Of a DNA stretch of 64,000 bases, positions 10,336-63,657 are shown piece after piece (position 1 is the first letter of the stretch; each line of letters begins with the position of its first letter). This DNA is from Candidatus Collierbacteria bacterium RIFOXYD2_FULL_45_13 (lineage in GTDB: Bacteria > Patescibacteriota > Microgenomatia > UBA1400 > MFAQ01): NCBI GenBank assembly GCA_001774685.1, contig MFAS01000001.1:91489-155488 (forward strand), given 5' to 3'. Both the position numbers and the translations under genes were made by a program. Below the pieces are notes generated by a model. That model did not search any database. It saw only the letters and a program-made list of their open reading frames with translations, and was not told the DNA's origin.

Positions 10336-11340
10336 TTAATCAGTTTTTTGCTGCCAAACGTCCGGGTTCACAAGACAGGATGGCTGTCTTTTTTCAATCG
10401 CATCGGTTATATTCTCCACAACAATTTTTGCCATTGCCATACGCGCTTCGATTGTTGCCGAAGCGGTATGCGGCGTCAGAATGGTGTTGGGAAGGGCTCG
10501 TAACTCCTCAGGAACGTGCGCTTCATCCTCAAAAACATCCAAGCCGGCTCCGGCAATCCATTTTTCCCTGAGCGCCTTAATTAATACCTTTTGATCTACA
10601 ATTGGTCCCCTGGACGTATTGATCAACAACGCGGTCGGCTTCATTAGTTTTAGCTCCCGCTCGCCCACCATGTGTTGAGTTTCCTTGGTCAAAGGAATAG
10701 ACAAACTTACAACATCAGACTTTTCCAAAAGCTGATCCAAAGAATGGTAGGTTACATCGTACTCTTCTTCGAACTCCTCGTCCCTATGGCGATTAAAGTA
10801 TATTATTTTCATCCCTAAAGCACTACACATTCTGGCTGTCCAACGTCCAATCCTCCCTAGACCCACAACACCCATAACTTTATCTTTAATTCCGGTTCCC
10901 AGCAACAGATCCGGTTCCCAACCTTTATACTTCCCGGACCTTATTAACCTGTCTCCTTCTACGATTCTTCTAAACAACGATATCGTCAGAGCAAGGATCT
11001 CTTCGGCCACTGACTCCGTCAAAACTCCGGGTGTATTTGTTACACAAACTCCTCTTTTGGTTGCCGATGGTACGTCAATATTGTCAAACCCTACTGCATA
11101 ATTACTTATCACTCTTAGCTGATCTCCTGCTGCCTCCATCACCTCTTCGTCTATCTTTTCGGTTAACAGGGAAATTATTCCGGTACTTCCCCTAACTCCT
11201 TTTAACAAATCCTCTCGGCCTATATCCCTCCCCGGCCAGACAACTACTTCATACCTATCTTTTAACCTTTCAACAAACTTTCCAAGAAAAACATGAGTCA
11301 CAAATATTTTGGGCTTTTCCATACCTTCATTTAACCACAA
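10336..11340 (-). CDS. D-isomer-specific 2-hydroxyacid dehydrogenase (glyoxylate/hydroxypyruvate reductase-like)
   Basis: NAD-binding GLGRIGRWTARM (GxGxxG). Family-typical RGP, SRGP and HTAS-like segments. Confidence 0.8.
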   Translation of the reverse strand: MWLNEGMEKPKIFVTHVFLGKFVERLKDRYEVVVWPGRDIGREDLLKGVRGSTGIISLLTEKIDEEVMEAAGDQLRVISNYAVGFDNIDVPSATKRGVCVTNTPGVLTESVAEEILALTISLFRRIVEGDRLIRSGKYKGWEPDLLLGTGIKDKVMGVVGLGRIGRWTARMCSALGMKIIYFNRHRDEEFEEEYDVTYHSLDQLLEKSDVVSLSIPLTKETQHMVGERELKLMKPTALLINTSRGPIVDQKVLIKALREKWIAGAGLDVFEDEAHVPEELRALPNTILTPHTASATIEARMAMAKIVVENITDAIEKRQPSCLVNPDVWQQKTD

Positions 11341-16986: not shown

Positions 16987-18585
16987 CTATTTTCTCTTCT
17001 TTTTAAACAAATCAATATATTTATCTAGATTATCTTTTGTCATTGTTTTTAAGCTATCTCCTATCCAAACCGACCCTCGGAATTTTTTTATGAAGTCAAA
17101 CTGCTCACCAACCTGGGTACCAGTTAATCCGGACCCCCGTCTTCCCACAAAACAATCTGCATCATTAATCCACACTTTCCCGTTCAAAAACAATCTGGCA
17201 CTACTATTTCTCATACTCTCCCTGAACATGTAGTTGTTAATCATTTTTCCTACTACCGGAAATTTTGAAACATAGGGATTTATTGTATCGATACCGACCC
17301 TCGCCGAATCTACGATCCCCACCAGCGGCGAAAGTTGCGTAATTGCCGACATTAGGTGAGTCTTTTTCCCCGCTGCGTTTCTAATAGTCTCATAGCCCAT
17401 TCTTAGAGCTTGTGCTCTCGTCACAGGAAGAAAATAATTGCCGGAAAAACAGACTGGATAAGTAAAGTCTATTTTTAGCATCTCAAATCCCCAATCTAAC
17501 ATTTGTTTCACCACTTTTTTGATATAACTCCGGACTTCTGGGTGGGTCGGATCCAGGACTTTTAGCAAAAGTTGTGGTAAAAAATCCAAGGGAGAACTTT
17601 GCCGGCCGGATAGTTCTCTTCCGGAATCATCACGCAAAAACCATTCCGGATGCTCCAGGTACACTCTGCTTTTAGAACTCGCCACATAAGGCGCAAACCA
17701 TAACCCCGCTTTAAGCCCGGCCTTCCGCACTTCTTTTACTACCGACTTCATCCCTAAAGGAAAACTCTCATTAATTTCCAACCAATCTCCCCAAACACAG
17801 TATCCGGCATCAATCTCCACATATTTTATGTTGGATTTTTTGGGAAATATAGAAAGTGCCTTTAACTGGTCAAGGAGATAATCTTCGCTCACAACATTGC
17901 CCTGATAATAATATGCGCAGCAAAGCCCCACCGGAGGGTTCTTTATACTTTTGGTTTTAGAATGCTTTTTTATCAAATCGGAATATATTTCCAGTGATTG
18001 CCTGGTCCTTTGTTCCCAAACAAAGGCAATCATTTCCGAAAGTATTTTCTCCCCCGGCTTTAAGGTCAGCCCATCGAGCTGGCAGGTTACCCGAACCCTT
18101 ACCCCTTGCCTGTTCTGATTAAGGTAAATCTGCGAAAATTGATCGCGGGATGTTACGGCTCCGATCACAATTCTCCCTTTGGGAAATATCAATTGTGTAA
18201 ACCACTCATTTACCATCGATCCTACCGGATAACCATAACTTTCTAAGAACGAGTTTGGGTTTTGATCCCTCCTGAGAAAAAATTTCTTTGGCCTTGTTTT
18301 AACAATTTTATTTCTGTATCCTGAGAAACTCGATTGGCCCCACCCATTTTCCAACACCATTTCAGTCCTTACGGGCAACAAAAACTCGGCAACCACAATC
18401 GAGTTCACTCTGATTTCTTTCTTCGCTTGATTGCTTATCTCCACCCGAAGAACCAATACCTCCGGTTTTTCTTCGACAATCTTCCTTACCAAGCCGATTC
18501 CCTCTTCGTTGTCAGGCGCTACAAACTTATTTTCTTCATTAACTTTGACATAACATCCAAAAGAAGAGTTAGAAATATTTCTCAT
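16987..18585 (-). CDS. Glycoside hydrolase, alpha-galactosidase-like (GH36/GH27 clan)
   Basis: KYVEIDAGY..WGDW, GLKAGLWFAPY, FEMLKIDF (KxD nucleophile region). Confidence 0.5.
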   Translation of the reverse strand: MRNISNSSFGCYVKVNEENKFVAPDNEEGIGLVRKIVEEKPEVLVLRVEISNQAKKEIRVNSIVVAEFLLPVRTEMVLENGWGQSSFSGYRNKIVKTRPKKFFLRRDQNPNSFLESYGYPVGSMVNEWFTQLIFPKGRIVIGAVTSRDQFSQIYLNQNRQGVRVRVTCQLDGLTLKPGEKILSEMIAFVWEQRTRQSLEIYSDLIKKHSKTKSIKNPPVGLCCAYYYQGNVVSEDYLLDQLKALSIFPKKSNIKYVEIDAGYCVWGDWLEINESFPLGMKSVVKEVRKAGLKAGLWFAPYVASSKSRVYLEHPEWFLRDDSGRELSGRQSSPLDFLPQLLLKVLDPTHPEVRSYIKKVVKQMLDWGFEMLKIDFTYPVCFSGNYFLPVTRAQALRMGYETIRNAAGKKTHLMSAITQLSPLVGIVDSARVGIDTINPYVSKFPVVGKMINNYMFRESMRNSSARLFLNGKVWINDADCFVGRRGSGLTGTQVGEQFDFIKKFRGSVWIGDSLKTMTKDNLDKYIDLFKKKRK

Positions 18586-19276
18586 AAAAAATGTGTTCCT
18601 CCCGCACCCCTTTTTCTTTCAGGTTCTTTTCCATCTCCGTGATCATATTCGGCGCACCGCATAGATATACCAAAGTCTTTGTCCAATCCTGCTCAAGCCG
18701 ATTAACGACGGTATCGACATGTCCGGCAAACCCAGGCCAACCCTCCGTCGGCTTTGAGATGACAATGTCGTGTTTAAAATTGTCAAAATCTCGGTTTATA
18801 TTATCCAGCTCTTTCAGCCAGTATAGTTCTTCGGGGTGACGCATTCCCCAAACCAGTCTCACCTCATTGGTAAAATGTTTCCGGTACAAAAGATCCTCTA
18901 TCATCGGTTTGAAAGGGGCTATCCCTGTTCCGGTAGCCAAAAAAAGTATGTGTCTTGCTTCGAACAACAATAGTGGATCGATCGTAAACCTGCCCAAGAA
19001 AGCCAAAACCTCGACACTGTCTCCTACCTTTAACCCAAGTATATATTTTGATCCCACGCCCATCGGTGTCACATCTACCAACAAGTCAATCACATTTTCG
19101 TCTGGCAAACTAGCTATTGAATAAGACCTTCTTGTTCCATCCGCAGCCACCTTCAGACTGGCATACTGGCCGGGTATATACTCCACCTTTTTATCAAAAC
19201 CAATCCTCACAAGATAGTTATTTCCCGCCAAGTTTTCCATATACTCCACTCTTCCCAATAATTTTTCAGGCAACAT
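18569..19276 (-). CDS. FNR-like FAD/NAD(P)-binding oxidoreductase (ferredoxin-NADP reductase family)
   Basis: RSYSIAS (RxYS FAD motif), LATGTGIAPF (NAD(P) motif). Confidence 0.7.
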   Translation of the reverse strand: MLPEKLLGRVEYMENLAGNNYLVRIGFDKKVEYIPGQYASLKVAADGTRRSYSIASLPDENVIDLLVDVTPMGVGSKYILGLKVGDSVEVLAFLGRFTIDPLLLFEARHILFLATGTGIAPFKPMIEDLLYRKHFTNEVRLVWGMRHPEELYWLKELDNINRDFDNFKHDIVISKPTEGWPGFAGHVDTVVNRLEQDWTKTLVYLCGAPNMITEMEKNLKEKGVREEHIFYEKYF

Positions 19277-19288
19277 AAGGCTATTTTA

Positions 19289-20044
19289 CTATCTACTAAC
19301 GATTAAATAACCGACAATTATCAAGGCAGTCCCCAACAGTAATCTCATCCACTTGGTATTCTTATGCTCCCACTCCTTCATGTCCACCACCTGTTTCCCT
19401 TCTGCCATAGCCGACAATATCAATATTAGTGGCATCACGAAGATCAAATTGTAATACAGGAACCATCCCAGTATTTGCACCATCGGCAAACCCGATCTGG
19501 CGAGTACAGCCGTGGTTCCAATATAAAGAGGCAACATGCAAGGTGTGGAAAAAACCGTTGTCAGAAACCCGATCAAGGCAGCCATTCCGACCCCCGTCTT
19601 TACCATTAGTTTGTTTATCTTTTCAAAACCCAACCTAGGCATTCGTAAATGAATGGGTAAATCCTGCCAAAAGACATCCTTCAGCTGAATTAGTCCCGCC
19701 AAAGCCAATGCTCCTCCGATCACATACTTGAAGACTCCGGCAAGCCATGATCTTTGGAAATAAAAGGCCGCGCTATAAAAGACGAGTCCCAAGAGCAGAT
19801 AAGTTACAAACGTACTCAGTATATAGGTAAAACCAATTTTATAGATCCATTTCTTATCTTTACTTCTCCCCCCAAACACCAACAGGTATCCCAAGAAGGT
19901 GATCATCATCCCTATGCCACAAGGGTTGATCCCGTTCGTCAAAGCAGTTATGGTGAGTATCGGCAGACTGATTTGCATTTTATTTAGTTTCGAGGAGTTG
20001 TTTAACCTTATCAACCACAAATGGTGCTCCCACCTGTTCTCCAT
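19289..20044 (-). CDS. ccdA: Cytochrome c biogenesis / thiol-disulfide transporter CcdA (DsbD family)
   Basis: Polytopic. Membrane-embedded Cys residues in GINPCGIGMM and FSTPCMLPLY. Confidence 0.75.
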   Translation of the reverse strand: MENRWEHHLWLIRLNNSSKLNKMQISLPILTITALTNGINPCGIGMMITFLGYLLVFGGRSKDKKWIYKIGFTYILSTFVTYLLLGLVFYSAAFYFQRSWLAGVFKYVIGGALALAGLIQLKDVFWQDLPIHLRMPRLGFEKINKLMVKTGVGMAALIGFLTTVFSTPCMLPLYIGTTAVLARSGLPMVQILGWFLYYNLIFVMPLILILSAMAEGKQVVDMKEWEHKNTKWMRLLLGTALIIVGYLIVSR

Positions 20045-20624
20045 TTACAAAAAAGGTCGGTGTGCCGGAAAGTTGTAGTGAGGCGGCCAAATCGGCGTCA
20101 ACTTGCACATTCTGAGCCACTTCATTAGAAGTCAATTTCTCTATAAATATATTTTCGTCCAACCCCAAACTCCTCGCATAATCCGCAAAACTATTTTCGG
20201 GTTTATTTACCACCGACCATTCCTCCTGTTTCTCATACAAAACCGCCACCATATCAAATCCCTTACCCATAATTCTTGCCGCTTCGGCCGCCTTAGCGGA
20301 AATCAAAGCATAACGATGTAATGAGGCTGGTAAAGGGAAAAGTCTTGTTACAACCTTCACCCCTGGCATATTAAACAGTTCTTTCGTTTGTATATCCGCC
20401 GCCTTACAAGAAGGACACTGCATATCCGAAAAGTTGACTACCGTTACCTTCGTTTCGCCGTTTTCTTTTACAAATCTTGCCCCATCAAGTAGTACTTTTT
20501 CATCTACCTTAAGTGAGTTTCCCGGTCCGGCCATTTTAGACAAACCCCAAATGACAATTATCAGTAGCACTGCACAGCCAAGTGTCACTTTTAGTATCAG
20601 TTTCCAGTCATTCATGGGTTTCAA
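19980..20624 (-). CDS. DsbA-family thiol:disulfide oxidoreductase (thioredoxin fold), membrane-anchored
   Basis: N-terminal TM. CxxC motif MQCPSCKAAD. Confidence 0.75.
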   Translation of the reverse strand: MKPMNDWKLILKVTLGCAVLLIIVIWGLSKMAGPGNSLKVDEKVLLDGARFVKENGETKVTVVNFSDMQCPSCKAADIQTKELFNMPGVKVVTRLFPLPASLHRYALISAKAAEAARIMGKGFDMVAVLYEKQEEWSVVNKPENSFADYARSLGLDENIFIEKLTSNEVAQNVQVDADLAASLQLSGTPTFFVNGEQVGAPFVVDKVKQLLETK

Positions 20625-21015
20625 ATATCTTTAGTAATCCTCGAAAGGCGAGTGTAGCACACTTCATTCTCCCGGCATTTACTTCTCCTCCAAGCATTTC
20701 AACTATTCCGTTTTCTCCAAAATCCTCAAGTTCTTTTTTACTCATTCCTACAATTTTTTCCGACAGCATACTGGCCGCCGCTGTCGAAATGGCACACCCC
20801 ACCCCTCTCCATTTCATCTCTTTTATCACTTCATCTTCATTGCGAACGGAGCGTGGCAATCCAGGTTCCTTCCTTGTCCCAATTTTCACCTGAATTTGTA
20901 TCATATCTCCACACGACGCATTCGACTCATCCATATTAATATCCGCATCATCCAATGAACCAAAGTTCCTTGGATTTTTATAGTGATCAATAATAATATC
21001 TTTGTAATCAGACAT
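20608..21015 (-). CDS. sufU: SUF system Fe-S cluster scaffold SufU (NifU/IscU-like)
   Basis: SCGDMIQIQ, GVGCAIS, RMKCATLA (three conserved Cys). Confidence 0.85.
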   Translation of the reverse strand: MSDYKDIIIDHYKNPRNFGSLDDADINMDESNASCGDMIQIQVKIGTRKEPGLPRSVRNEDEVIKEMKWRGVGCAISTAAASMLSEKIVGMSKKELEDFGENGIVEMLGGEVNAGRMKCATLAFRGLLKIFETHE

Positions 21016-21021
21016 AGTTCT

Positions 21022-22332
21022 TTAGGCAAATACCTTTGGTATTTCTCTTATTTTACTCACTAGATAATCAATTTCCTTCTTGGTGTTGTACACATAGAAT
21101 GTCGCTCTGACCATTGCCGGTACCCCAAAGCTCATTACCAGTGGAGCCGCGCAATGCTGGCCGGATCGCACAGCAATCCCAAAACTATCGAGTACTTGTG
21201 CCGCATCATGAGGATGAACCCCAATCACATTGAAAGCCAGTGCTCCACCTCTTTCTTCAATATCTCTAGGGCCATAGAGCTTTACCAAACCCTCTTCTTC
21301 CAGCTTAGACATTCTCTCGAGTGCATATTTAATTAGTTCTTTTTCGTGTTCGCGCACATTGTCCATTCCCAGATTTTCCAGATAATCTACCGCCGCTCCC
21401 AACCCAATTATCCCGGCAATGTCCGGCGTTCCCGCCTCAAACCTGCTGGGAATATCTGCCCACGTCGCTCCGGTTATTTTTACCTCCCCTATCATGTCTC
21501 CCCCGTATAAAAAGGGTCTCATTTTTGAAAGAATTTCTTTCCTTCCCCACAATACCCCTGTCCCGGTTGGCCCCAGCATTTTATGTCCGGAAAAAGCGAT
21601 AAAATCCGCTCCCAACGTCTTCACATCTACCTTCATATGAGGCACCATCTGTGAGGCATCCACCACCACCGTTGCATTTTGGGCCTTTCTTTTTATCGCT
21701 GTCAGCATTCCGGCAAGGTCAGGGATCGTTCCCAGCACATTAGAGACTCCGGTAACGGAAAAAAGTTTCACTTTCCCATCCGCTATCAGACTCTCCAAAC
21801 TTCCCAGTCTCACTCTCAATCCATTCTCAATAAAAACCTCACTTTGAGTTTTAGAGTTTTTGATTTTTTGATTTTTGACTATCAGCTTTCCCTCTCCATC
21901 GACATCAATAATTCTCAGCTCCGCTCCCGTCTCTCGGCAAAGTTCCTGCCAAGGTACCAGGTTTGAGTGATGTTCCAGTTTACTGATAAGTACTGCATCT
22001 TCTTTTTTTATATTATCCCTGCCCCACGAATACATGATCAGATTCAAACTCTCGCTGGCATTTCTGGTAAAAATGATTTCTTCGGGTCTGGCTCCAATAA
22101 AATTTGCCACTTTCTCCCTCGCTTCGTCTACCAACCCAGTTGATTCCACCGACAGTTCGTAAACCCCTCTATGAATATTCGCATTTGTATTCCGATAAAA
22201 GTCGTCCATCGCCTTGATAACGCTCTCCGGCTTTTGGCTCGTCGCCCCGCTATCTAGAAACACCAAGTCATGTCCATGAATTTTTCTCTTTAATATCGGG
22301 AAATCATTTCTGACTTTTTCTACATCAAACAT
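21022..22332 (-). CDS. sufS: Cysteine desulfurase SufS (class V aminotransferase)
   Basis: SGHKMLGPTGTGVLWG (PLP-Lys), RSGQHCAAP (catalytic Cys). Confidence 0.9.
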   Translation of the reverse strand: MFDVEKVRNDFPILKRKIHGHDLVFLDSGATSQKPESVIKAMDDFYRNTNANIHRGVYELSVESTGLVDEAREKVANFIGARPEEIIFTRNASESLNLIMYSWGRDNIKKEDAVLISKLEHHSNLVPWQELCRETGAELRIIDVDGEGKLIVKNQKIKNSKTQSEVFIENGLRVRLGSLESLIADGKVKLFSVTGVSNVLGTIPDLAGMLTAIKRKAQNATVVVDASQMVPHMKVDVKTLGADFIAFSGHKMLGPTGTGVLWGRKEILSKMRPFLYGGDMIGEVKITGATWADIPSRFEAGTPDIAGIIGLGAAVDYLENLGMDNVREHEKELIKYALERMSKLEEEGLVKLYGPRDIEERGGALAFNVIGVHPHDAAQVLDSFGIAVRSGQHCAAPLVMSFGVPAMVRATFYVYNTKKEIDYLVSKIREIPKVFA

Positions 22333-22349
22333 AGGTATATTGTAATGCG

Positions 22350-22970
22350 TTACTGTGTCACCGTGTCACTTTTGTTAATAGCATTGTCCTCCTTCACCTC
22401 TCCCTCGTGATACTGTGTCACCGTGTCACTTTTGTTAATAATGTTTTTATCTTCCATTTTCACACCATCTCCCCCGTGATACGGTGACACGGTGGCGCTT
22501 TTGTTTACTATGTCTTTTAAGTAGTTTTCAGAATCTTGTTTTTCTTGGAATTTTGGATCGGCCACCCTCTGTCCACCATAACTTTTTGTTTTATATCCTG
22601 CAATAAATTTCGCAATCAGCCTGGATTCATAATCAGCCAAATCCTGAACTTTCTTAAAGTCTCCTTCAGATATTAATTCCTGATCGTAAGCTACGTATAG
22701 TTGGGCTCGCACCTCACCGGCCGAACCTCTGGCAATATACAAAAAATACAAGAATTCGTCTTTTGTTCCTCTTTCAAACCCCTCAGAAATATTGCTAAGC
22801 ACTGAAACCGCGGCTCTTCGTATCTGGTCTTGTAAACTTCTATCCTTCCATTCGCTAGAAACTCTATATACCTCTTTCGTTAACTCTCTTGCTTTCTGCC
22901 AGATAAACAAATCTTCGAACTTTGATATTTTTCTGTTTTCGTTTATCATTTTATTTGTTGTATTTTTCAC
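22350..22970 (-). CDS. Four-helix-bundle protein (TIGR02436, 23S rRNA intervening-sequence protein family) with a repetitive C-terminal tail ending KSDTVTQ
   Basis: N-terminal ~120 aa: FIWQKARELTKEVYRVS...SNISEGFERGTKDEFLYFLYIARGSAGEVRAQL. C-terminal NKS[AD]TV..YH.G repeats encoded by a ~60-bp DNA repeat that contains GTGTCACCGTGTCAC. Confidence 0.65.
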   Translation of the reverse strand: MKNTTNKMINENRKISKFEDLFIWQKARELTKEVYRVSSEWKDRSLQDQIRRAAVSVLSNISEGFERGTKDEFLYFLYIARGSAGEVRAQLYVAYDQELISEGDFKKVQDLADYESRLIAKFIAGYKTKSYGGQRVADPKFQEKQDSENYLKDIVNKSATVSPYHGGDGVKMEDKNIINKSDTVTQYHEGEVKEDNAINKSDTVTQ

Positions 22971-22990
22971 TCACGCACATTCATCCCCAT

Positions 22991-23052
22991 GTCACGGTGT
23001 CACTGTGTCACTGTGTCACTGTGTCACTGTGTCACTGTGTCACTGTGTCACT
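22991..23052. repeat. Tandem 8-bp microsatellite (GTGTCACT) x ~7.5
   Basis: tgtcacggtgtcactgtgtcactgtgtcact... seen directly. Overlaps the last 7 codons of the SGNH gene and fills the gap to the next gene. Confidence 0.9.
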
Positions 23053-23757
23053 TAAAAAATATTTTCTCAAACCTGCAAGCTTCATTGTTCCAAATTCACC
23101 ATAGTCTAAAAGGTCAACTCCAAACACCTCCATGGCCAACTTCTCCGCGATTATCTGATTCCCAATCAAATTACAGTGCAAGAAATCAATGTCCCCAGGC
23201 TTCATTGTCCATTCTTTATTTTCCCAAAGATGTTTATAATCAAAAATCTTGCTTAGATCATATTTTTCATATTCCTCAAAAACATCCACGAATTTAACCT
23301 CCAACTCATCTGCAACTTTCTTGTAGATATCTCTTATTTGTTCTAACTTTGGGTTCAGGTCATTTTTTATCGTTTTGTACGTCGACCACAAAACCACGTT
23401 TGACCCAATAGACTTTATTTTCAAAACTAACTCCCTAAGCATTCCTTCCACATCCCCCACCAGCTCAAGATGATTAAAACCCAAAGAAATAACGACAGTA
23501 TCTGGGTTAAATCTTCCTACAAGAAACTCAAAATTTTCCATAAAAAAGGGAATTGTTCCTCCATCCATACCTGAGTTGATCATTTTTGTTTTCCAGCCGT
23601 TTTCTGTCGTTTGCCTCAAACTAAAGTCCAACCAATCAAACCAGTTTGGGTGACACCATTCTTGGCTTGTTGTGCTATCACCCACACAAACAATTGTTTT
23701 GAAGCCTGTGTTATTTTTTGGATTTGCTTGTAATTCCATTATCTTATTATCTTTCAT
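23032..23757 (-). CDS. SGNH/GDSL-family hydrolase; C-terminus ...FLSDTVTQ
   Basis: VCVGDSTT (GDS block I), DFLHCN (DxxH block V). Its ATG overlaps the upstream TGA (ATGA). Confidence 0.7.
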   Translation of the reverse strand: MKDNKIMELQANPKNNTGFKTIVCVGDSTTSQEWCHPNWFDWLDFSLRQTTENGWKTKMINSGMDGGTIPFFMENFEFLVGRFNPDTVVISLGFNHLELVGDVEGMLRELVLKIKSIGSNVVLWSTYKTIKNDLNPKLEQIRDIYKKVADELEVKFVDVFEEYEKYDLSKIFDYKHLWENKEWTMKPGDIDFLHCNLIGNQIIAEKLAMEVFGVDLLDYGEFGTMKLAGLRKYFLSDTVTQ

Positions 23758-24245
23758 TCTTGTGTCACCGTGTCACTTTTTTCTAATTCGAGTTTCCTTT
23801 TCAGTTCCTCCACATGTTCTTTACTCCAATGGTCTATGTCCTGAAGCAAAAACTTTCTGGCCGTCAAACCATATCCCTTCCATATTGGTTTATCCCACAA
23901 ATTTTCCGGCAGTGTATTGTAGATTTCCGTCAGTCTATTCCCCGCCCTCACTAATTCACCATATACTTCCTCCCAGGTATTATTTTTTCTTGCCTCTATC
24001 CCTTTTCTGTTAAACTCCTCCGTACTGGGTTCCCAATAAGGTTCAACTCCCTTTTTTAATTTTTCCAAACAATCAATATCGTGGACCATCCAGTTCGACA
24101 AATGAGCTGTCACGTCTTTCAGTGACCACTTGTCGAAAATGATTTTCGTTCTGCTTTCCTCAGGAAAATCTCCAACCAACCGGGTAATTTCTTCTTTAAC
24201 TTTCTCAAATTCCCCCAATAGTTTTTTTATTTCCGGCTCTGCCAT
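23754..24245 (-). CDS. ClbS/DfsB (DUF1706)-like four-helix-bundle protein; C-terminus ...KSDTVTQE
   Basis: DKWSLKDVTAHLSNWMVHD resembles the DUF1706 WS.KD..AHL..W signature. Confidence 0.5.
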   Translation of the reverse strand: MAEPEIKKLLGEFEKVKEEITRLVGDFPEESRTKIIFDKWSLKDVTAHLSNWMVHDIDCLEKLKKGVEPYWEPSTEEFNRKGIEARKNNTWEEVYGELVRAGNRLTEIYNTLPENLWDKPIWKGYGLTARKFLLQDIDHWSKEHVEELKRKLELEKSDTVTQE

Positions 24246-24261
24246 ATTCGTATTTTATCTT

Positions 24262-24741
24262 TTATTCTTCGGTTACCTCTTTCAGGAACCCTTCAACTAT
24301 TATTTTCTTGGCGTCCGGTTCGTCTATGCCTCGGCTTGATAGATAAAAGAGCTGATCCTCATCTATTTTACCGACAGTCGCAGCGTGGGATGCCCTCACG
24401 TCATTATTTTCTATTTCCAGTTTTGGTTCGGCCACCGCACTGCTTTGCTTATCCAACAACAACAATCTCATCTCTAAGAAGCTGTCCGTCTTTCTGGCGT
24501 CCTTTCCAATCTTCACCATCCCGTCTACGGTGACACGTGCGCCATTAGCCGCCACCCCTTTAATCACTACTCTCCCAAATGTATTTGGCACTCTATGGTC
24601 TGCCACCACTCTGACTTTATAGTCTCCCGGTTCCGTGGCAGATATAACCCCCAGAACTTCTTTTTCTTCAAACGAAGTCAAAAAGGGGACTACCAAATCA
24701 ATCTCTCCGGGTTTGTCCAATTTAAATCTCTGTGTGATCAT
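24262..24741 (-). CDS. sufD: Fe-S cluster assembly protein SufD, short form (SufBD C-terminal domain only)
   Basis: RASHAATVGKIDEDQLFYLSSRGIDE (the conserved SufBD C-terminal motif). Confidence 0.7.
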   Translation of the reverse strand: MITQRFKLDKPGEIDLVVPFLTSFEEKEVLGVISATEPGDYKVRVVADHRVPNTFGRVVIKGVAANGARVTVDGMVKIGKDARKTDSFLEMRLLLLDKQSSAVAEPKLEIENNDVRASHAATVGKIDEDQLFYLSSRGIDEPDAKKIIVEGFLKEVTEE

Positions 24742-24803
24742 ATTTTATTTATTTTTTGTTTTTGTCTTGAGTTCTAGAGTTCTTGATTTCTTGAGTTTTT
24801 TCT

Positions 24804-26216
24804 TTACCCCACCGATCCCTCCATTTCTAGTCCTACAAGTCTATTCATCTCCACTGCATACTCCAAGGGAATTTCTTTCACCACCGGCTCCATAAATCCA
24901 TTAACGATCATTGTGCTTGCTTCTTCTGCACCGATCCCCCTACTCATTAGATATAGCAACTGTTCTTCTCCAATCCGGCTGACAGTCGCCTCGTGCTCCA
25001 ACACCACGTCATTTTCCTGAATTTTATTCACCGGATAGGTGTCGGAACGGCTTTTTTCGTCAAGTATTAGCGCGTCACAAACCACCTTAGATCGTGCTCC
25101 CCAAGCGCCAGGCACCATATGTACCATCCCTCTATACGTAGCCCGCCCGCCATTTTTGCTGATCGATTTGCTTATAATTTGCGACGTTGTCTCGGGTGCC
25201 AGATGAATCATCTTCGCACCGGTGTCCTGATGCTGTCCTTCACCGGCCCAGGCAATCGAGAGCACTTCACCATGGGCTTTTCTTCCGGCCAAGATACAAG
25301 AAGGATACTTCATGGTCAGGTGTGAACCAAGGTTCCCATCCACCCAACGCATCTCAGCATTCTCCATCACTCTCGCTCTTTTAGTCACTAGGTTATAAAC
25401 ATTCTTAAACCAGTTCTGTACTGTAGAGTACTGGACCTTCGCGTTTTTCTTCACATATATCTCAACTACTGCGGCATGAAGTGAAGCAGACGAAAATGAC
25501 GGGGCAGAACAACCTTCAATATAGTGCATCTTACTGCCTTCCTCGGCGATGATCAGAGTTCTCTCAAACTGTCCGGCTCTTTCGGTATTGATTCTGAAAT
25601 ATGCCTGCAAGGGGAGCCCTACATCTACATTTTTAGGCACATATACAAAGGATCCTCCGCTCCACACCGCCGTATTTAATGCCGCCAGTTTGTTGTCACC
25701 CATGGGAATTACTTTTCCAAAGTGTTCTTTCACAATCTCCGGATACTCCCTAAGACCTTCGTCCATCGAGAGGAAGATCACTCCTTTTTCGGACAAGGCT
25801 TTCTTGAGGGACCCATAAACGACTTCAGAATCATACTGGCTTTTCACCCCCGCCAACAGTTCCCGCTCGGCTTCCGGCACGCCAATTTTCTCAAACGTAT
25901 TCTTAATAGCCTCCGGTACGTCCGCCCAAGTCTTCGCCTCCTGATTCTTTGGTTTTATATAGTAGCGGATATCATCAAAATCAATAGGGGAGAGATCGCC
26001 ACCCCATGTCGGCATTTTCATCTCCAGATATTTCTTATACGCTTTCAGCCGGATCTCCAGCATCCATTCAGGTTCATTTTTCAAAGAGGAAATCTTCCGC
26101 ACCAGACCCTCGGTCAACCCCTTTTCCGCCGTAAATGAATACTCTACATCATCGGTATGCCCTAACGGATAAAGTTTATCCTCCGGAAGTGTCTGGTTAT
26201 CGGTCTTTTTACTCAT
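24804..26216 (-). CDS. sufB: Fe-S cluster assembly protein SufB
   Basis: 470 aa. ...[22 protein letters not shown]..., SufB-typical. 8-nt overlap with sufC. Confidence 0.9.
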
Positions 26217-26943
26217 ATGACTTATAGCCTTGTGCTTCTAACTTATCCACAATTTCCTTTCCTCCCCTGTCCACCACCTCTCCGTTTTTCATTACCACCA
26301 CTCTATCCGGTACTAAATATTTAAGCAGTCGCTGATAATGGGTAATTACCAGAACACTCATTCCGGCTTTCACCATTTCAACCACGTTTTTGGCGATGAG
26401 TGCCAGGGCGTCGATATCCAGACCTGAGTCCACTTCATCCAAGATCAAGAGTTTCGGTTTCAATATTCTCATCTGCAGTATTTCCAACTTCTTTTTTTCT
26501 CCACCACTAAAGCCTTCATTAATACTTCTGGTCAGCAAATGCTCATCTATATGTAGTCTCTCCCCTTCTTCCGCAATTTGTTTTTTTAGATCGAGCGCAC
26601 TCACGGTCAGCCCCCTGCCTCGGAGTGAAGCCCAGAGCATCTCTCTTACGGTTACGCCGGAAATCGCCACCGGGTACTGGAACGACATCATTATCCCTAG
26701 CCTTGCCCGAGCGTCAGGTTTCAGCTCAAGCAGGCATATTCCTTCAAAACTTAGTTCCTCCGCCTCAGCCTCGTATTTGGTGTTCCCAATTAAGGTATTG
26801 GCTAAGCTGGATTTCCCCGATCCGTTGGGGCCCATCAGAGCTACCACCTCACCCTTTTTAACCTCTAGGTCGACCCCTTTTAGAATCTCTTTGCCTTCTA
26901 TTTTCACCTTCAAATTCCTTATTTTAAGCATCTTGTTCGTCAA
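26209..26943 (-). CDS. sufC: Fe-S cluster assembly ATPase SufC (ABC ATPase)
   Basis: Walker [10 protein letters not shown], signature FSGGEKK, Walker B LLILDE. Confidence 0.9.
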
Positions 26944-26952
26944 CGTTAATTA

Positions 26953-27339
26953 TTATCTTATTAAATCCTCCAGCGTATATTCCGCCAGCATATCCTCAAT
27001 CCGGAATGTAAGCCTGTCCATAAAACTTTGCTGGCCGCAGCTTCCATCTACAGGGCAGCTCTCACAAGCTACCGGGGCCACCTCACCCTCTATAGCCTCT
27101 AGAGCTTCTTTTACCAGTATCTCTTTTGGTTCGTAATTCAGGCTAAACCCTCCCCCCCTTCCCTCTTTCGAGTTTAAGATCCCCGCTTCGACCAGGGAAA
27201 CGGCAATTTTGGCCATAAAAGCCCTAGGCAAGCCTAACTCACTCAAATATTTAAGTGAAACCCGGCCTCCCCGGCCACGCTTGGCCAGCACAGACAAGAG
27301 CGCCATTCCGTAATCAGCCTTTTTTGTGAGTGTAAACAT
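26953..27339 (-). CDS. Rrf2-family transcriptional regulator (IscR/SufR-like) with a Cys cluster
   Basis: HTH SLKYLSELGLPRAFMAKIAVSL. Cys ligands CESCPVDGSC. Directly upstream of sufCBD. Confidence 0.8.
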   Translation of the reverse strand: MFTLTKKADYGMALLSVLAKRGRGGRVSLKYLSELGLPRAFMAKIAVSLVEAGILNSKEGRGGGFSLNYEPKEILVKEALEAIEGEVAPVACESCPVDGSCGQQSFMDRLTFRIEDMLAEYTLEDLIR

Positions 27340-27386
27340 ATACTTGGACTATTATACTCCAAGTATCTTTAACTCGTCAAGTTGTC

Positions 27387-28019
27387 TCATAACTGTATTT
27401 TCTCGACCAGCTTACACTTTCCCGGATCCAACGTCCTGCTGGAATTCAAGTAGATATCAATATCTTTTGCCTCAAATTCCCCAAATTGATAATTACGCAT
27501 ATTCCACAATGTCTCAAAGAACTTTTCTCCTGGAATCTCCTTAAACCGGATGAAGTTCAGCCAGGCTAATCGCTCGTAAATGGAGAGATATTTTGTATAG
27601 TCATCCCCTTTAATCCTCAGATCCCCCCTGATTTCGTTCCTCAATTTTCCTAAATTGAACTCCGGTTCCGCCACTATTGATACTCCCAACTCATTACATG
27701 CCAGATACCCTATCTTAAAAACAAGTCTCTTACCGGAAGCTTTGTTTTTTACCACCTCAGCTATTTCTCTTGGATCCGTTGCCTTATCTATTCTTCCTAA
27801 AATAGTCATGTGCAATCTCTCAAACGGATATACATATAAACTGTTCTCTGATTCTTCAAACTCATGTACCAGTTTTTTATACTCTCTTTTCCAATCCGGC
27901 AGATTGAGCACAATATTGATGGTGTAATTCTCATCCAAATAATCATCCAAAAGATTAATGGAATCTCGGTTCAATGCTCTGATTTGATCATCGATCTGTT
28001 CTTTTTCTTCAACCAGCAT
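27387..28019 (-). CDS. Hypothetical protein (possible 2H-phosphoesterase-like, a single HxT motif)
   Basis: LHMTILG only. No second HxT motif seen. Confidence 0.35.
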   Translation of the reverse strand: MLVEEKEQIDDQIRALNRDSINLLDDYLDENYTINIVLNLPDWKREYKKLVHEFEESENSLYVYPFERLHMTILGRIDKATDPREIAEVVKNKASGKRLVFKIGYLACNELGVSIVAEPEFNLGKLRNEIRGDLRIKGDDYTKYLSIYERLAWLNFIRFKEIPGEKFFETLWNMRNYQFGEFEAKDIDIYLNSSRTLDPGKCKLVEKIQL

Positions 28020-63600: not shown

Positions 63601-63657
63601 GTAAAAAAACTCAAAAACTTGAGAACTCAAAAAGAAAGACTTGAGGTAGAATAGGGC

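What the first reader, a model, noticed from the sequence alone, without database searches (positions are those of the whole stretch)
22350..24245. Three accessory genes splitting the suf operon, all ending in the same peptide KSDTVTQ encoded by a shared GTGTCACCGTGTCAC DNA module
The suf Fe-S operon is interrupted between sufD and sufS by three minus-strand genes:
- a ClbS/DfsB-like four-helix-bundle protein;
- an SGNH/GDSL hydrolase;
- a TIGR02436-type four-helix-bundle protein.

The first two are translationally coupled by an ATGA overlap. All three terminate in the identical peptide SDTVTQ followed by a stop codon. That tail is encoded by the same approximately 18-bp DNA motif, CTGTGTCACCGTGTCACT, at 22353-22370, 23035-23052 and 23761-23778. 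The third gene also carries two extra roughly 60-bp internal repeats of the motif, which give it a repetitive NKS[AD]TV..YH.G tail.

Unrelated proteins sharing an identical 3' coding end is unusual. Possible explanations:
- a recombination/cassette-capture site (attC-like) at gene 3' ends;
- a conserved C-terminal tag such as a degron or sorting signal;
- a DNA-level element (regulator-binding site or terminator) that ORFs read into.

TIGR02436 proteins are also known for turning up inside rRNA intervening sequences, which suggests they are carried by mobile elements.
Basis: seen in the sequence. Interest (0 to 1): 0.75.

Follow-up and report, generated by a model that had tools for sequence, protein, structure and literature searches.

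The report
Repeat-armed IVS-like cassette in suf operon
Three unrelated genes end in the same six amino acids only because each runs into copies of an 8-base repeat (GTGACACN) that brackets a small four-helix-bundle gene lodged in the iron-sulfur (suf) operon, and relatives of that gene in other bacteria, and reportedly in a ribosomal-RNA intervening sequence, carry similar repeat arms.

Summary
GTGTCACNGTGTCAC occurs 12 times in the window against 0.08 expected, all within 22350-23780.

The shared tail SDTVTQ is not a protein feature. It is what the repeat (AGTGACAC)n encodes in one reading frame. In relatives the same tail, or VTQ from a second frame, sits on whichever gene lies upstream of an array: SufD, the SGNH hydrolase, the DinB/ClbS-like protein or the four-helix-bundle protein.

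The arrays belong to the PF05635/TIGR02436 gene, here called IVP (23S rRNA intervening-sequence protein, Avd-like). In 9 of 9 contexts from candidate-phyla-radiation (CPR) bacteria this gene has GTGWCAC arrays on both sides. At least 8 of these lie in suf operons, at three different positions. A relative without IVP has no arrays.

Synonymous sites between these IVP genes are saturated, yet the repeat unit is kept. Copy number varies (7, 4 or 3) among 99.6%-identical assemblies.

Eight of 8 PF05635 genes sampled on plasmids also carry flanking 7-8-nt tandem arrays, usually complementary, so the gene sits in a hairpin loop. A paper reports tandem heptamers before the homologous gene in the Coxiella 23S intervening sequence.

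Best reading: an intervening-sequence-like stem-loop cassette outside rRNA. Processing and mobility are inferred.

The parts
22989..23052 (-). Upstream (5') arm of the IVP cassette. It holds 7 perfect units plus 1 variant of AGTGACAC in gene sense. The SGNH ORF reads into its first units (S-D-T-V-T-Q-TGA), and the remaining units are non-coding spacer before IVP.
   Evidence: Tandem Repeats Finder: period 8, 7.9 copies, 98% matches, score 119. Sequence; repeat family D1. Copy number is 7, 4 or 3 in otherwise 99.6%-identical assemblies.
22350..22970 (-). IVP gene: PF05635/TIGR02436 four-helix-bundle protein (bAvd/S23p family). It is 206 aa from the GTG start, or 199 aa from the ATG at 22949 as called in GenBank. 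It carries a repeated C-terminal extension.
   Evidence: PF05635 E 2.5e-31. TIGR02436 E 7.5e-29, above cutoff. PDB 2GSC (XCC0516) E 1.5e-10. A homologue 99% identical over 90% of the query is 186 aa, 20 aa shorter, which fits one tail unit fewer.
22351..22509 (-). Downstream (3') arm of the cassette, multiplied. Two identical 30-nt modules at 22351-22380 and 22411-22440 each hold the doublet GTGACACGGTGACAC. A third, flipped and degenerate copy lies at 22480-22509. The last doublet supplies the final codons of IVP (KSDTVTQ) and is followed directly by the TAA stop.
   Evidence: Repeat family D2 and inverted pairs I1 and I6.
23758..23787 (-). Solo arm: the doublet GTGACACGGTGACAC at the 3' end of the DinB/ClbS-like gene, 4 nt before the SGNH start codon. 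It shares the 20-mer AAAAGTGACACGGTGACACA with the two IVP 3' modules.
   Evidence: family D2. Comparable arrays without an adjacent IVP occur at the sufB-sufD junction (L305) and the sufD-DinB junction (L307).
23754..24245 (-). DinB_2/DUF1706(ClbS)-like gene. Its last codons (KSDTVTQE) come from the solo arm. It is an accessory gene, not part of the cassette proper.
   Evidence: Homologues P0177, P0180 and P0182 end ...SDTVTQ and P0179 ends ...SDTVAQ; the others have no such tail.
23032..23757 (-). SGNH/GDSL hydrolase gene. It is a resident of the sufD-sufS junction in this lineage, also in a genome that has no arrays. Its last codons (TVTQ and the stop) come from the upstream arm.
24262..24741 (-). 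sufD (context): the upstream boundary of the variable junction.
   Evidence: PF01458 E 4e-40.
21022..22332 (-). sufS (context): the downstream boundary. Its ATG lies 24 nt after the last repeat unit.
   Evidence: PF00266 E 5e-132.

Best explanation
SHOWN. The three shared tails are a by-product. The suf operon of this Candidatus Collierbacteria genome carries a cassette made of a PF05635/TIGR02436 four-helix-bundle gene (IVP) bracketed by tandem arrays of the octamer GTGWCAC-N.

In gene sense, (AGTGACAC)n reads S-D-T-V-T-Q-stop in one frame and V-T-Q-stop in a second, and it stops at once in the third. Any ORF that abuts an array is therefore ended within six codons.
- The SGNH gene runs into the upstream arm.
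- IVP runs into its own downstream arm.
- The DinB/ClbS-like gene runs into a solo arm, probably a copy of the IVP 3' arm, since the two share a 20-mer.

The arrays are constrained cis-elements of the cassette, not neutral slippage products and not a peptide tag. They are also hypervariable and recombinogenic. This shows as copy-number polymorphism, 60-nt tail duplications and changing gene content between sufD and sufS.

INFERRED (the mechanism I commit to). The arms are the equivalent of the complementary termini of a 23S rRNA intervening sequence. GTG-N-CAC is self-complementary apart from its centre, so arrays that look direct are also inverted. In the operon transcript the two arms can pair with each other or fold locally. 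This places the IVP ORF in a loop and creates a double-stranded RNA feature, likely an RNase III substrate. That feature would separate or insulate the IVP message from the suf message, which would let the cassette sit harmlessly inside an essential operon.

Whether the IVP protein recognises the arms, and how the cassette spreads, is open.
For: 1. Motif enrichment confined to this locus: 12 hits against 0.08 expected; tandem array.

2. The arrays go with IVP. There are GTGWCAC arrays on both sides of the IVP gene in 9 of 9 contexts: the window, L131, L134, L216, L299, L301, L303, L304 and L307. At least 8 of these are suf operons, with IVP at three positions: before sufS, between sufD and a hydrolase, and between sufS and nifU. 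L135 has sufD-SGNH-sufS with no IVP and no array.

3. The tail follows the array.
- SufD ends NSDTVTQ* in L299 and EESDTVTP* in L307.
- SGNH homologues P0002, P0003, P0005 and P0006 end LLSDTVTQ, while P0007, P0008, P0013, P0014 and P0016 end DYLKK.
- 30 of the 70 closest IVP homologues end V[TS][QRL] and 4 more end VPQ; none of the next 50 do.

4. Constraint. Four-fold synonymous identity among the 9 IVP genes is 0.36, which is saturated, with median amino-acid identity 0.61. Every lineage still keeps perfect GTGWCAC units on both flanks.

5. Instability. There are 7, 4 or 3 units among assemblies that are 99.6% identical over 7 kb. Contigs end at the array in L004, L008, L305 and L306.

6. 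Pairing. The predicted duplex between upstream and downstream arms is -18 to -34 kcal/mol, against -7 to -12 for shuffles. Flipped-centre units or a flipped spacer that give perfect blocks of at least 7 bp occur in L134, L299, L301, L216 and the window.

7. Generality. Eight of 8 PF05635 genes fetched from plasmids of Nostoc, Calothrix, Geminocystis, Stanieria, Picosynechococcus, Riemerella and Azospirillum carry flanking 7-8-nt tandem arrays. In at least 6 of them the arrays are complementary and form continuous stems of roughly 15-35 bp.

8. Filled and empty sites. In Picosynechococcus, PCC 7003 has cas10-arm-IVP-arm-cmr3 and PCC 7002 has cas10-cmr3. The cassette boundaries coincide with the arms, and the Cas10 C-terminus is rewritten by the left arm.

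9. Published parallel. In the Coxiella 23S intervening sequence the homologous S23p ORF is preceded by 2-3 copy-variable GACAGAT heptamers. The 5' RNase III site lies at the first repeat, and the termini form a 28-bp stem (PMC4990558).

10. Co-transcription elsewhere. In Riemerella the IVP gene lies between a sufA-like gene and sufB. All three are listed as co-induced in PMC5609570.
Against: - No RNA data were available, so pairing and cleavage are predictions.
- The CPR arms pair only as 3-bp blocks interrupted by A-A mismatches unless a unit is flipped.
- In whole-cassette minimum-free-energy folds the upstream arm pairs with the downstream arm in only 4 of 9 contexts. In the other 5 it folds on itself.
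- One more distant IVP (L308) has a 12-copy heptamer array only on its 3' side, and that unit is not self-complementary.
- In one plasmid case (L315) no complementary arm lies within 110 nt.
- Solo arrays exist without an adjacent IVP, which also fits a recombination-site or protein-binding role.
- The near-exclusive suf location of this subfamily could mean a domesticated regulatory function rather than a selfish cassette.
- The nine contexts were reached through homologues of the window's own genes, except L216, which came from the motif scan. They are therefore not an unbiased sample.
Confidence: 0.6

Rival explanations
1. The arrays are DNA recombination sites. Genes between sufD and sufS are cassettes gained, lost and shuffled by recombination at GTGWCAC arrays, integron-like or by recombination and slippage between direct repeats. 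That DNA role, not any RNA structure, is why the arrays are kept.
For: - L307 shows the layout array-gene-array-gene-array: sufD-[3 units]-DinB-[9]-IVP-[3]-sufS.
- The gene content of the junction varies: none, SGNH, DinB-like or an alpha/beta hydrolase.
- Solo arrays occur at other junctions.
- Some DinB-like homologues end LRKYLLSDTVTQ, which is the SGNH C-terminus. This suggests deletions that fused the two 3' ends.
- The 60-nt tail is tandemly duplicated.
- The IVP cassette occupies three different positions in suf operons.
Against: - No integrase or other recombinase lies within 10 kb on either side.
- No attC-like structure is present.
- The SGNH gene and the alpha/beta hydrolase are not individually bounded by arrays (L135, L299).
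- In the plasmid examples the arms are inverted, not direct. They cannot delete the gene by direct-repeat recombination.
- No target-site duplication is visible in the PCC 7003 / PCC 7002 pair.
Confidence: 0.15
2. The arrays are iterated binding sites for a protein, most plausibly the pentameric IVP itself. It would act as a ring-shaped binder of repeated RNA or DNA units, in the manner of TRAP. It would autoregulate the cassette or tune translation of neighbouring suf cistrons.
For: - The repeat unit differs between IVP clades: GTGWCACN, GGGACAA, GACAGAT, GGTTTAA, AGGGTGT, AGGAGATA and others.
- The GTG and CAC triplets are conserved while the centre and spacer bases vary.
- Arrays of 2-9 units end 1-47 nt before the next start codon.
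- This IVP subfamily stays in suf operons.
- The solved homologue is reported to be a toroidal homopentamer (PMC4990558, citing Lin 2006).
Against: - There are no binding data.
- From my own knowledge, not checked here, Avd relatives are reported to bind nucleic acid without sequence specificity.
- Arm complementarity in 6-7 of 8 plasmid cases is not needed for a pure binding-site model.
- The paper suggests that Coxiella S23p is probably not translated, yet the repeats persist.
Confidence: 0.15
3. The array is an ordinary hypermutable simple-sequence repeat, a contingency locus or neutral slippage product, that happens to sit at these junctions.
For: - Copy number is 7, 4 or 3 in near-identical populations.
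- Octamer arrays of the same unit are common in many phyla and are not linked to IVP there. More than 120 loci were found, and PF05635 turned up once among 150 adjacent ORFs.
- A second octamer family, AACTCAAR, occurs elsewhere in this operon.
Against: - The unit sequence and the two-sided placement around IVP are kept across lineages whose synonymous sites are saturated.
- The array is absent where IVP is absent.
- Changes of 8 nt shift no reading frame here, because the SGNH stop lies within the first three units.
- Eight of 8 unrelated IVP genes have their own arms.
Confidence: 0.06
4. SDTVTQ is a functional C-terminal tag, such as a degron or a sorting or assembly signal, shared by accessory suf proteins.
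For: The peptide recurs on four protein families in several genomes.
Against: - Two reading frames of the same DNA are used, giving SDTVTQ and VTQ.
- The tail switches host protein according to gene order.
- Orthologues lack it when no array follows.
- The array continues for 5 units past the stop codon and also occurs in purely non-coding spacers upstream of IVP (L301, L303, L304).
- Variants such as SDTVTP, DTVTRDTVSRSE, KVTL and KVTR show no peptide-level constraint.
Confidence: 0.03

Closest known systems
23S rRNA intervening sequences that carry an S23p/PF05635 ORF (Coxiella burnetii, Leptospira, Brucella, Xanthomonas)
   Same: - The ORF belongs to the same protein family.
- The ORF is enclosed by sequences that can pair.
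- In Coxiella, tandem 7-nt repeats (GACAGAT x2-3 plus one degenerate copy) lie directly upstream of the ORF, vary in number between strains and hold the 5' RNase III site.
- The element sits in an essential, highly conserved transcription unit without destroying it (PMC4990558).
   Different: - Here the host is a protein-coding operon (suf), not helix 9, 25 or 45 of 23S rRNA.
- The arms are arrays of a quasi-palindromic octamer and so look like direct repeats.
- The arms overlap the coding ends of the upstream gene and of IVP itself.
- RNase III processing is untested.
Avd (accessory variability determinant) of diversity-generating retroelements
   Same: The protein superfamily is the same. 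The layout also resembles that of diversity-generating retroelements as I recall it (target gene with variable repeat, avd, template repeat): a repeat at the 3' end of the upstream gene, then the avd-like gene, then a second copy of the repeat.
   Different: - The precomputed Pfam hits for genes within 10 kb on either side list no reverse transcriptase.
- No template/variable repeat pair of 60-150 nt is present.
- The repeats are 8-nt tandem units with no adenine-specific mismatches.
Integron gene cassettes with attC sites
   Same: A conserved DNA element sits at the 3' end of each of several unrelated, co-oriented genes, and gene content at one locus varies.
   Different: - There is no IntI integrase and no attI site.
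- There is no attC-type imperfect palindrome.
- The arrays track one particular gene family (IVP) rather than every cassette.
Short tandem hepta- and octanucleotide intergenic repeats: cyanobacterial STRR sequences, long simple-sequence repeats, and the TAACTGA repeats of Beggiatoaceae (PMC4679880)
   Same: They are 7-8-nt units in short tandem arrays, intergenic, often just upstream of start codons, variable in copy number, and of unknown function.
   Different: Those repeats are described as genome-wide dispersed families and are not tied to a particular flanked gene. Here and in the plasmid examples the arrays come in complementary pairs around a PF05635 gene. That paper does not contain the terms S23, 'four helix' or 'intervening sequence'.
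REP/BIME palindromic elements
   Same: They are short, partly palindromic extragenic units at gene ends that can form hairpins in mRNA.
   Different: REPs are dispersed in hundreds of copies per genome and are linked to RAYT transposases. This motif occurs at a single locus in 64 kb and is a tandem array.

Membership tests
PF05635 / TIGR02436 (23S rRNA-IVP, bAvd-like four-helix-bundle proteins) | Match to the family profile above the curated cutoff | tested here: met
   PF05635: 108.5 bits against a cutoff of 33.8. TIGR02436: 100.1 bits against a cutoff of 24.
PF05635 / TIGR02436 (23S rRNA-IVP, bAvd-like four-helix-bundle proteins) | Homology to a solved member (pentameric four-helix bundle) | tested here: met
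   phmmer hit to PDB 2GSC (XCC0516), E 1.5e-10. The oligomeric state of this protein was not tested.
23S rRNA intervening sequence (IVS) | Inserted in a 23S rRNA gene (helix 9, 25 or 45) | tested here: not met
   The cassette lies between the SGNH and sufS genes of a suf operon. Rfam found no rRNA match in 21000-25500, only sub-threshold miRNA-model hits on the array.
23S rRNA intervening sequence (IVS) | Carries an S23p/PF05635 ORF | tested here: met
23S rRNA intervening sequence (IVS) | Complementary termini form a stem that encloses the ORF | tested here: inconclusive
   The arm-arm duplex is -18.1 kcal/mol in the window against -9.4 +/- 2.5 for shuffles, and -18 to -34 in the 8 relatives. 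In global folds the two arms pair in only 4 of 9 contexts. The plasmid relatives form clear stems of roughly 15-35 bp.
23S rRNA intervening sequence (IVS) | Excised from the precursor RNA by RNase III | not testable with these tools
23S rRNA intervening sequence (IVS) | Copy-variable short tandem repeats directly upstream of the ORF (described for Coxiella) | tested here: met
   A 7.9-unit octamer array lies upstream of IVP. It has 7, 4 or 3 units in near-identical assemblies. Compare PMC4990558.
Diversity-generating retroelement | Adjacent reverse transcriptase gene | tested here: not met
   The precomputed Pfam hits for called genes within 10 kb on either side list no RVT domain. None appears among the 25 families shown for the rest of the window, but only 25 of 61 families were displayed.
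Diversity-generating retroelement | Template/variable repeat pair that differs at adenines | tested here: not met
   No direct repeat longer than 31 nt was found within 12000-34000.
Integron cassette array | IntI tyrosine recombinase and attI next to the array | tested here: not met
   The neighbourhood gene list has no integrase. A resolvase-domain ORF exists somewhere in the window outside this neighbourhood; it was not located.
Integron cassette array | attC: a 57-141-nt imperfect inverted repeat with conserved core sites at each cassette's 3' end | tested here: not met
   The shared element is a 15-64-nt tandem octamer array.
Contingency locus (phase-variable simple-sequence repeat) | Tandem repeat with copy-number polymorphism in a population | tested here: met
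   7, 4 or 3 units.
Contingency locus (phase-variable simple-sequence repeat) | A unit change switches a gene on or off through a frame shift or promoter spacing | tested here: inconclusive
   No frame is affected, because the SGNH stop lies inside the first three units. An effect on IVP expression cannot be excluded. The promoter scan gave only weak 9-of-12 matches that use GTGACA as the -35 element.
C-terminal peptide tag (degron or sorting signal) | Peptide conserved on orthologues independently of the underlying DNA element and reading frame | tested here: not met
   The tail is absent from orthologues without an adjacent array. Two frames are used, and the host protein changes with gene order.
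REP/BIME elements | Many dispersed intergenic copies per genome | tested here: not met
   All arrays lie in one 1.5-kb stretch of the 64-kb window. The rest of the 1.09-Mb genome could not be scanned.

The most novel reading that the evidence does not exclude
PF05635 (S23p/Avd-like) genes together with their complementary arms of 7-8-nt tandem repeats form one widespread class of stem-loop cassettes that has not been recognised as a class. The classical 23S rRNA intervening sequences would be only the rRNA-resident members.

These cassettes settle exactly in the short junctions of conserved, co-transcribed units:
- suf operons in CPR bacteria and in Flavobacteriia;
- a type III-B cmr operon in Picosynechococcus;
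- rRNA.

On arrival they rewrite the last codons of the upstream gene. The IVP protein would recognise its own clade-specific arms and take part in processing or spread.
Probability: 0.3. Interest if true: 0.8.

Novelty: new variant of a known kind. Interest (0 to 1): 0.62.

Why it matters
**An odd signal explained.** Identical C-termini on unrelated proteins here come from a DNA element. Gene callers and readers will meet the same thing wherever ORFs abut such arrays.

**An old puzzle gets material to work with.** According to PMC4990558, intervening sequences have been known for over 25 years and their function and origin, like the function of S23p, remain unclear.
- Here the same gene-plus-arms architecture is seen outside rRNA, inside protein-coding operons, in at least four phyla.
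- The repeat units are clade-specific.
- A filled/empty pair exists in cultured Picosynechococcus strains (PCC 7003 and PCC 7002).
- In Riemerella the cassette gene is listed as co-induced with its suf neighbours in a published transcriptome.

Questions about processing, mobility and the role of the protein therefore become directly testable.

**CPR genomics.** The sufD-sufS junction emerges as a hotspot of gene turnover organised around one cassette. The arrays also break short-read assemblies.

Tried and rejected
1. I proposed that GTGACAC arrays flank PF05635 genes in all phyla. The hits are mostly (GGTGACAC)n arrays in Chloroflexi, Planctomycetes, Cyanobacteria, Saprospiraceae and actinomycetes. 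A local IVP profile and a Pfam scan of 150 adjacent ORFs found PF05635 only once, in L216, which is a suf operon. The idea was rejected: those arrays are a separate phenomenon.

2. A viral-contig scan with the 14-base pattern gave almost only single matches (4 of the 80 listed loci had two). I read these as chance level. It was uninformative.

3. A metagenome scan for AAAGTGACACNGTGACACA gave 42 loci, none with IVP. Many look unrelated or eukaryote-like.

4. A search for IVP relatives in viral contigs gave only one locus, L310. It too has repeat flanks.

5. Arrays as -35 elements (GTGACA resembles TTGACA). The spacing to the TACAAT-like box before sufS is a consistent 18-19 nt, which is too long. 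There is no consistent -10 box before IVP. Not supported.

6. Binding site of the operon's Rrf2 regulator or of the nearby Crp-family regulator. No GTGNCAC lies in the promoter region upstream of the Rrf2 gene. The array spacing does not fit TGTGA-N6-TCACA; that consensus is from my own knowledge. Dropped.

7. Diversity-generating retroelement. There is no reverse transcriptase and no template/variable repeat pair.

8. Known RNA family. Only sub-threshold miRNA-model hits on the repeat.

9. It is corrected in note 4.

10. MAFFT misplaced the left flank of the PCC 7003 / PCC 7002 pair. I read the junction by eye from that output.

Full report

Yes. Between sufD (24262-24741) and sufS (21022-22332), all on the minus strand, lie three genes:
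- a DinB_2/DUF1706(ClbS)-like gene at 23754-24245, with only weak Pfam matches;
- an SGNH/GDSL hydrolase gene at 23032-23757;
- a PF05635/TIGR02436 four-helix-bundle gene at 22350-22970, called IVP below.

The first two overlap by ATGA. GTGTCACCGTGTCAC with up to 2 mismatches occurs 12 times against 0.08 expected, and every hit lies in 22355-23776. The proteins end KSDTVTQE*, LSDTVTQ* and KSDTVTQ*.

The middle site is the end of a 7.9-unit tandem array of period 8 at 22990-23052. It runs on past the SGNH stop into the spacer before IVP.

The IVP tail holds two identical 30-nt modules at 22351 and 22411. A third, flipped copy at 22480 forms an inverted repeat with them.

**2. Source and relatives**

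The window is part of MFAP01000001.1 (GCA_001774675.1), a 1.09-Mb contig of Candidatus Collierbacteria RIFOXYB2_FULL_46_14, a candidate-phyla-radiation (CPR) bacterium. Contexts of homologues give a graded series:

| Locus | Gene order | Arrays |
|---|---|---|
| L135 | sufD-SGNH-sufS | none; SGNH ends ...NYLKSDKELSTI |
| L134, L131 | sufD-SGNH-IVP-sufS | GTGACAC arrays on both sides of IVP |
| L307 | sufD-[3 units]-DinB-[9]-IVP-[3]-sufS | SufD itself ends EESDTVTP* |
| L299 | sufD-[4]-IVP-[3]-alpha/beta hydrolase-sufS | SufD ends NSDTVTQ* |
| L301, L216 | sufS-[4]-IVP-[arm]-nifU | both sides |
| L303 | sufD-[6]-IVP-[3]-sufS | both sides |
| L304 | IVP at a contig end | arrays on both sides |

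So 9 of 9 contexts of this IVP subfamily have the arrays on both flanks. At least 8 are suf operons, and IVP sits at three different operon positions.

**3. Why the tails are identical**

In gene sense the array is (AGTGACAC)n. Frame 1 reads AGT GAC ACA GTG ACA CAG TGA, which is S-D-T-V-T-Q-stop. Frame 2 reads V-T-Q-stop. Frame 3 stops at once. This follows directly from the sequence.

The tail therefore appears on whichever ORF lies upstream of an array:
- SufD, SGNH, the DinB-like protein and IVP all carry it in one genome or another.
- Four SGNH homologues end LLSDTVTQ and five end DYLKK with no tail. In L135, with no IVP and no array, SGNH ends ...KSDKELSTI.
- DinB-like homologues split the same way.
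- 30 of the 70 closest IVP homologues end V[TS][QRL] and 4 more end VPQ. None of the next 50 do.

In the window, the DinB 3' doublet shares the 20-mer AAAAGTGACACGGTGACACA with the two IVP 3' modules. It is most simply a copy of that arm.

**4. The arrays are constrained and unstable at once**

Among the nine IVP genes the median amino-acid identity is 0.61. Identity at four-fold synonymous sites is 0.36, which means saturation. Perfect GTG[A/T]CAC units still persist on both flanks in every lineage.

In assemblies that are 99.6% identical over 7 kb, the upstream array has 7, 4 or 3 units. A homologue 99% identical over the aligned 90% of the protein is 20 aa shorter, which fits one tail unit fewer. 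Several contigs end at the array.

Arrays also occur without an adjacent IVP inside IVP-bearing operons: at the sufB-sufD junction in L305, the sufD-DinB junction in L307 and the DinB-SGNH junction here.

**5. What the arrays are**

GTG-N-CAC is self-complementary except at its centre, so direct arrays are also inverted arrays.
- Predicted duplexes between upstream and downstream arms are -18 to -34 kcal/mol, against -7 to -12 for shuffles.
- In L134, L299, L216 and the window a unit with a flipped centre gives perfect complementary blocks of 7 to 11 bp. In L301 a flipped spacer base does the same.
- Whole-cassette folds pair the two arms in only 4 of 9 cases. In the others the upstream array folds on itself.

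The decisive comparison came from unrelated PF05635 genes. I fetched eight from plasmid records, chosen for taxonomic spread. All eight have 7-8-nt tandem arrays on their flanks:

| Organism | Upstream unit | Downstream unit |
|---|---|---|
| Nostoc | GGGAAAA | CCCTTTTC |
| Riemerella | GGTTTAA | TAAACCT |
| Calothrix | AGGGTGT | CTACACC |
| Azospirillum | GAGGACG | GTCTTCT |
| Geminocystis | AAAAGGG | CTTTTCC |
| Picosynechococcus | AGGAGATA | ATCTCCTA |
| Stanieria | ...GCAGAAGG | CCTTCTG |
| Nostoc PCC 7120 | no complementary arm within 110 nt | CTTCTGC |

In at least six of them the arms are complementary and form continuous stems of roughly 15-35 bp. A viral-contig relative (L310) and a more distant CPR relative (L308, (AAGGGAC)x12 on the 3' side only) also carry arrays.

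In Coxiella burnetii the 23S rRNA intervening sequence contains the homologous S23p ORF. The ORF is preceded by 2-3 copy-variable GACAGAT heptamers, the 5' RNase III site lies at the first repeat, and the termini form a 28-bp stem (PMC4990558).

The CPR cassette is therefore best described as an intervening-sequence-like stem-loop element that lives in an operon instead of in rRNA.

**6. Boundaries and behaviour**

Comparing L135 (empty) with L134 (filled), 16 nt of the SGNH-sufS junction are replaced by arm-IVP-arm.

An independent filled/empty pair exists in cultured strains. Picosynechococcus PCC 7003 has cas10-arm-IVP-arm-cmr3, and PCC 7002 plasmid pAQ6 has cas10-cmr3 at 90.5% identity. 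The cassette replaces about 27 nt of junction. I saw no target duplication. The Cas10 C-terminus changes from ...AFNLRTRKV to ...AFNLRNRRI because the ORF now reads into the left arm. This is the same by-product seen in the window.

In Riemerella the cassette lies between a sufA-like gene and sufB. All three genes are listed as induced together in a published transcriptome (PMC5609570). Suf operons thus host such cassettes in two distant phyla.

**7. Mechanism: shown and inferred**

Shown:
- the arrays explain the tails;
- the arrays co-occur with IVP and are constrained;
- they vary in copy number;
- the arms can pair;
- relatives show the same arm-gene-arm layout.

Inferred:
- In the suf transcript the arms form double-stranded RNA, either arm to arm or locally.
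- This RNA is processed (RNase III) or otherwise insulates the IVP message.
- That allows the element to persist in an essential operon.
- Direct-repeat recombination and slippage between arms generate the duplications, solo arms and gene turnover at the sufD-sufS junction.

Rivals that the evidence does not exclude are that the arrays serve mainly as DNA recombination sites, or as iterated binding sites for the pentameric IVP. A plain neutral repeat and a peptide tag are disfavoured.

**8. Known or new?**

The protein family, the rRNA intervening sequences and the Coxiella heptamers are known. Hepta- and octanucleotide intergenic repeats are known as a class (PMC4679880).

I found no paper in the searchable library that links PF05635 genes outside rRNA to complementary tandem-array arms, or that places them in CPR suf operons. 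The library is incomplete, so prior description cannot be excluded.

I rate this a new variant of a known kind.

**9. Limits**
- No expression data were available for this organism.
- The rest of the source genome could not be scanned.
- The nine CPR contexts were reached through homologues of the window's own genes, except L216, which came from the motif scan.
- The plasmid sample is eight loci.
- The structure predictions are thermodynamic only.

Noticed in passing
window 24765-24797, 21843-21878 and 63605-63633; also L135 about 9492-9520: A second family of octamer tandem repeats has the unit AACTCAAR in gene sense. It fills the sufB-sufD spacer. It forms an in-frame insertion inside sufS (KNQKIKNSKTQS). 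It recurs 40 kb away in the window. In L135 it lies in the first codons of sufD.
   Followed up: partly
L137-L256 (genome scan): (GGTGACAC)n and related GGNGACNN octamer arrays are very common in Chloroflexi, Planctomycetes, Cyanobacteria, Saprospiraceae, Gemmatimonadetes and actinomycetes. More than 120 loci were found where I estimated about 1 by chance, often several per genome. They often sit next to arrays of the complementary unit. They are not linked to PF05635 genes. Their nature is unexplained.
   Followed up: partly
window 22333-22345; L131 about 7228-7243; L134 about 11190-11205; L135 about 10686-10702; L303 about 2908-2923; L307 about 2323-2338: A -10-like box (TACAAT, TATAAT or TAAAAT) lies exactly 6 nt upstream of the sufS ATG in all six lineages, with or without the cassette. 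This would fit an internal promoter that gives a leaderless sufS message, or a conserved AT-rich initiation region.
   Followed up: no
L317 (Picosynechococcus PCC 7003) and L319 (PCC 7002 pAQ6): A PF05635 cassette with AGGAGATA / ATCTCCTA arms sits between cas10 and cmr3 of a type III-B CRISPR operon in one strain. It is absent from the orthologous junction of the other. This is a tractable filled/empty pair.
   Followed up: yes
L312 (Riemerella anatipestifer record annotated as a plasmid): A PF05635 cassette with GGTTTAA / TAAACCT arms lies between a sufA-like gene and sufB. This is a second phylum with such a cassette in a suf operon. The three genes are listed as co-induced in PMC5609570.
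   Followed up: yes
L308 3953-4040: A more distant CPR IVP (P0125, 52% identical) lies outside any suf operon. It is followed directly by (AAGGGAC)x12.3 and has no matching upstream array.
   Followed up: partly
L004, L008, L305, L306, L170: Short-read contigs end inside or next to the GTGACAC array, so the repeat breaks assemblies. In L170, from another Collierbacteria genome, the array lies 72 nt from the end of the stretch held for that locus, next to a 212-aa ORF that I did not identify.
   Followed up: no
L301 1-2167: The SufB of this CPR relative carries an intein with a LAGLIDADG domain. It is a second kind of selfish element in the same operon that hosts the IVP cassette.
   Followed up: no
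L134 5588-6068: A HicB/HicA toxin-antitoxin pair and a NUDIX gene are inserted just upstream of the Rrf2-suf operon in one relative.
   Followed up: no
window, outside 17000-27400 (not located): One ORF of the window matches the Resolvase N-terminal domain (E 1e-19). It is not within 10 kb of the cassette according to the neighbourhood gene list.
   Followed up: no
P0179, P0180, P0182 compared with P0002, P0005, P0006: Some DinB-like homologues end LRKYLLSDTVTQ, which is identical to the C-terminus of SGNH homologues. This suggests deletions that fused the DinB-like gene to the 3' end of SGNH.
   Followed up: partly
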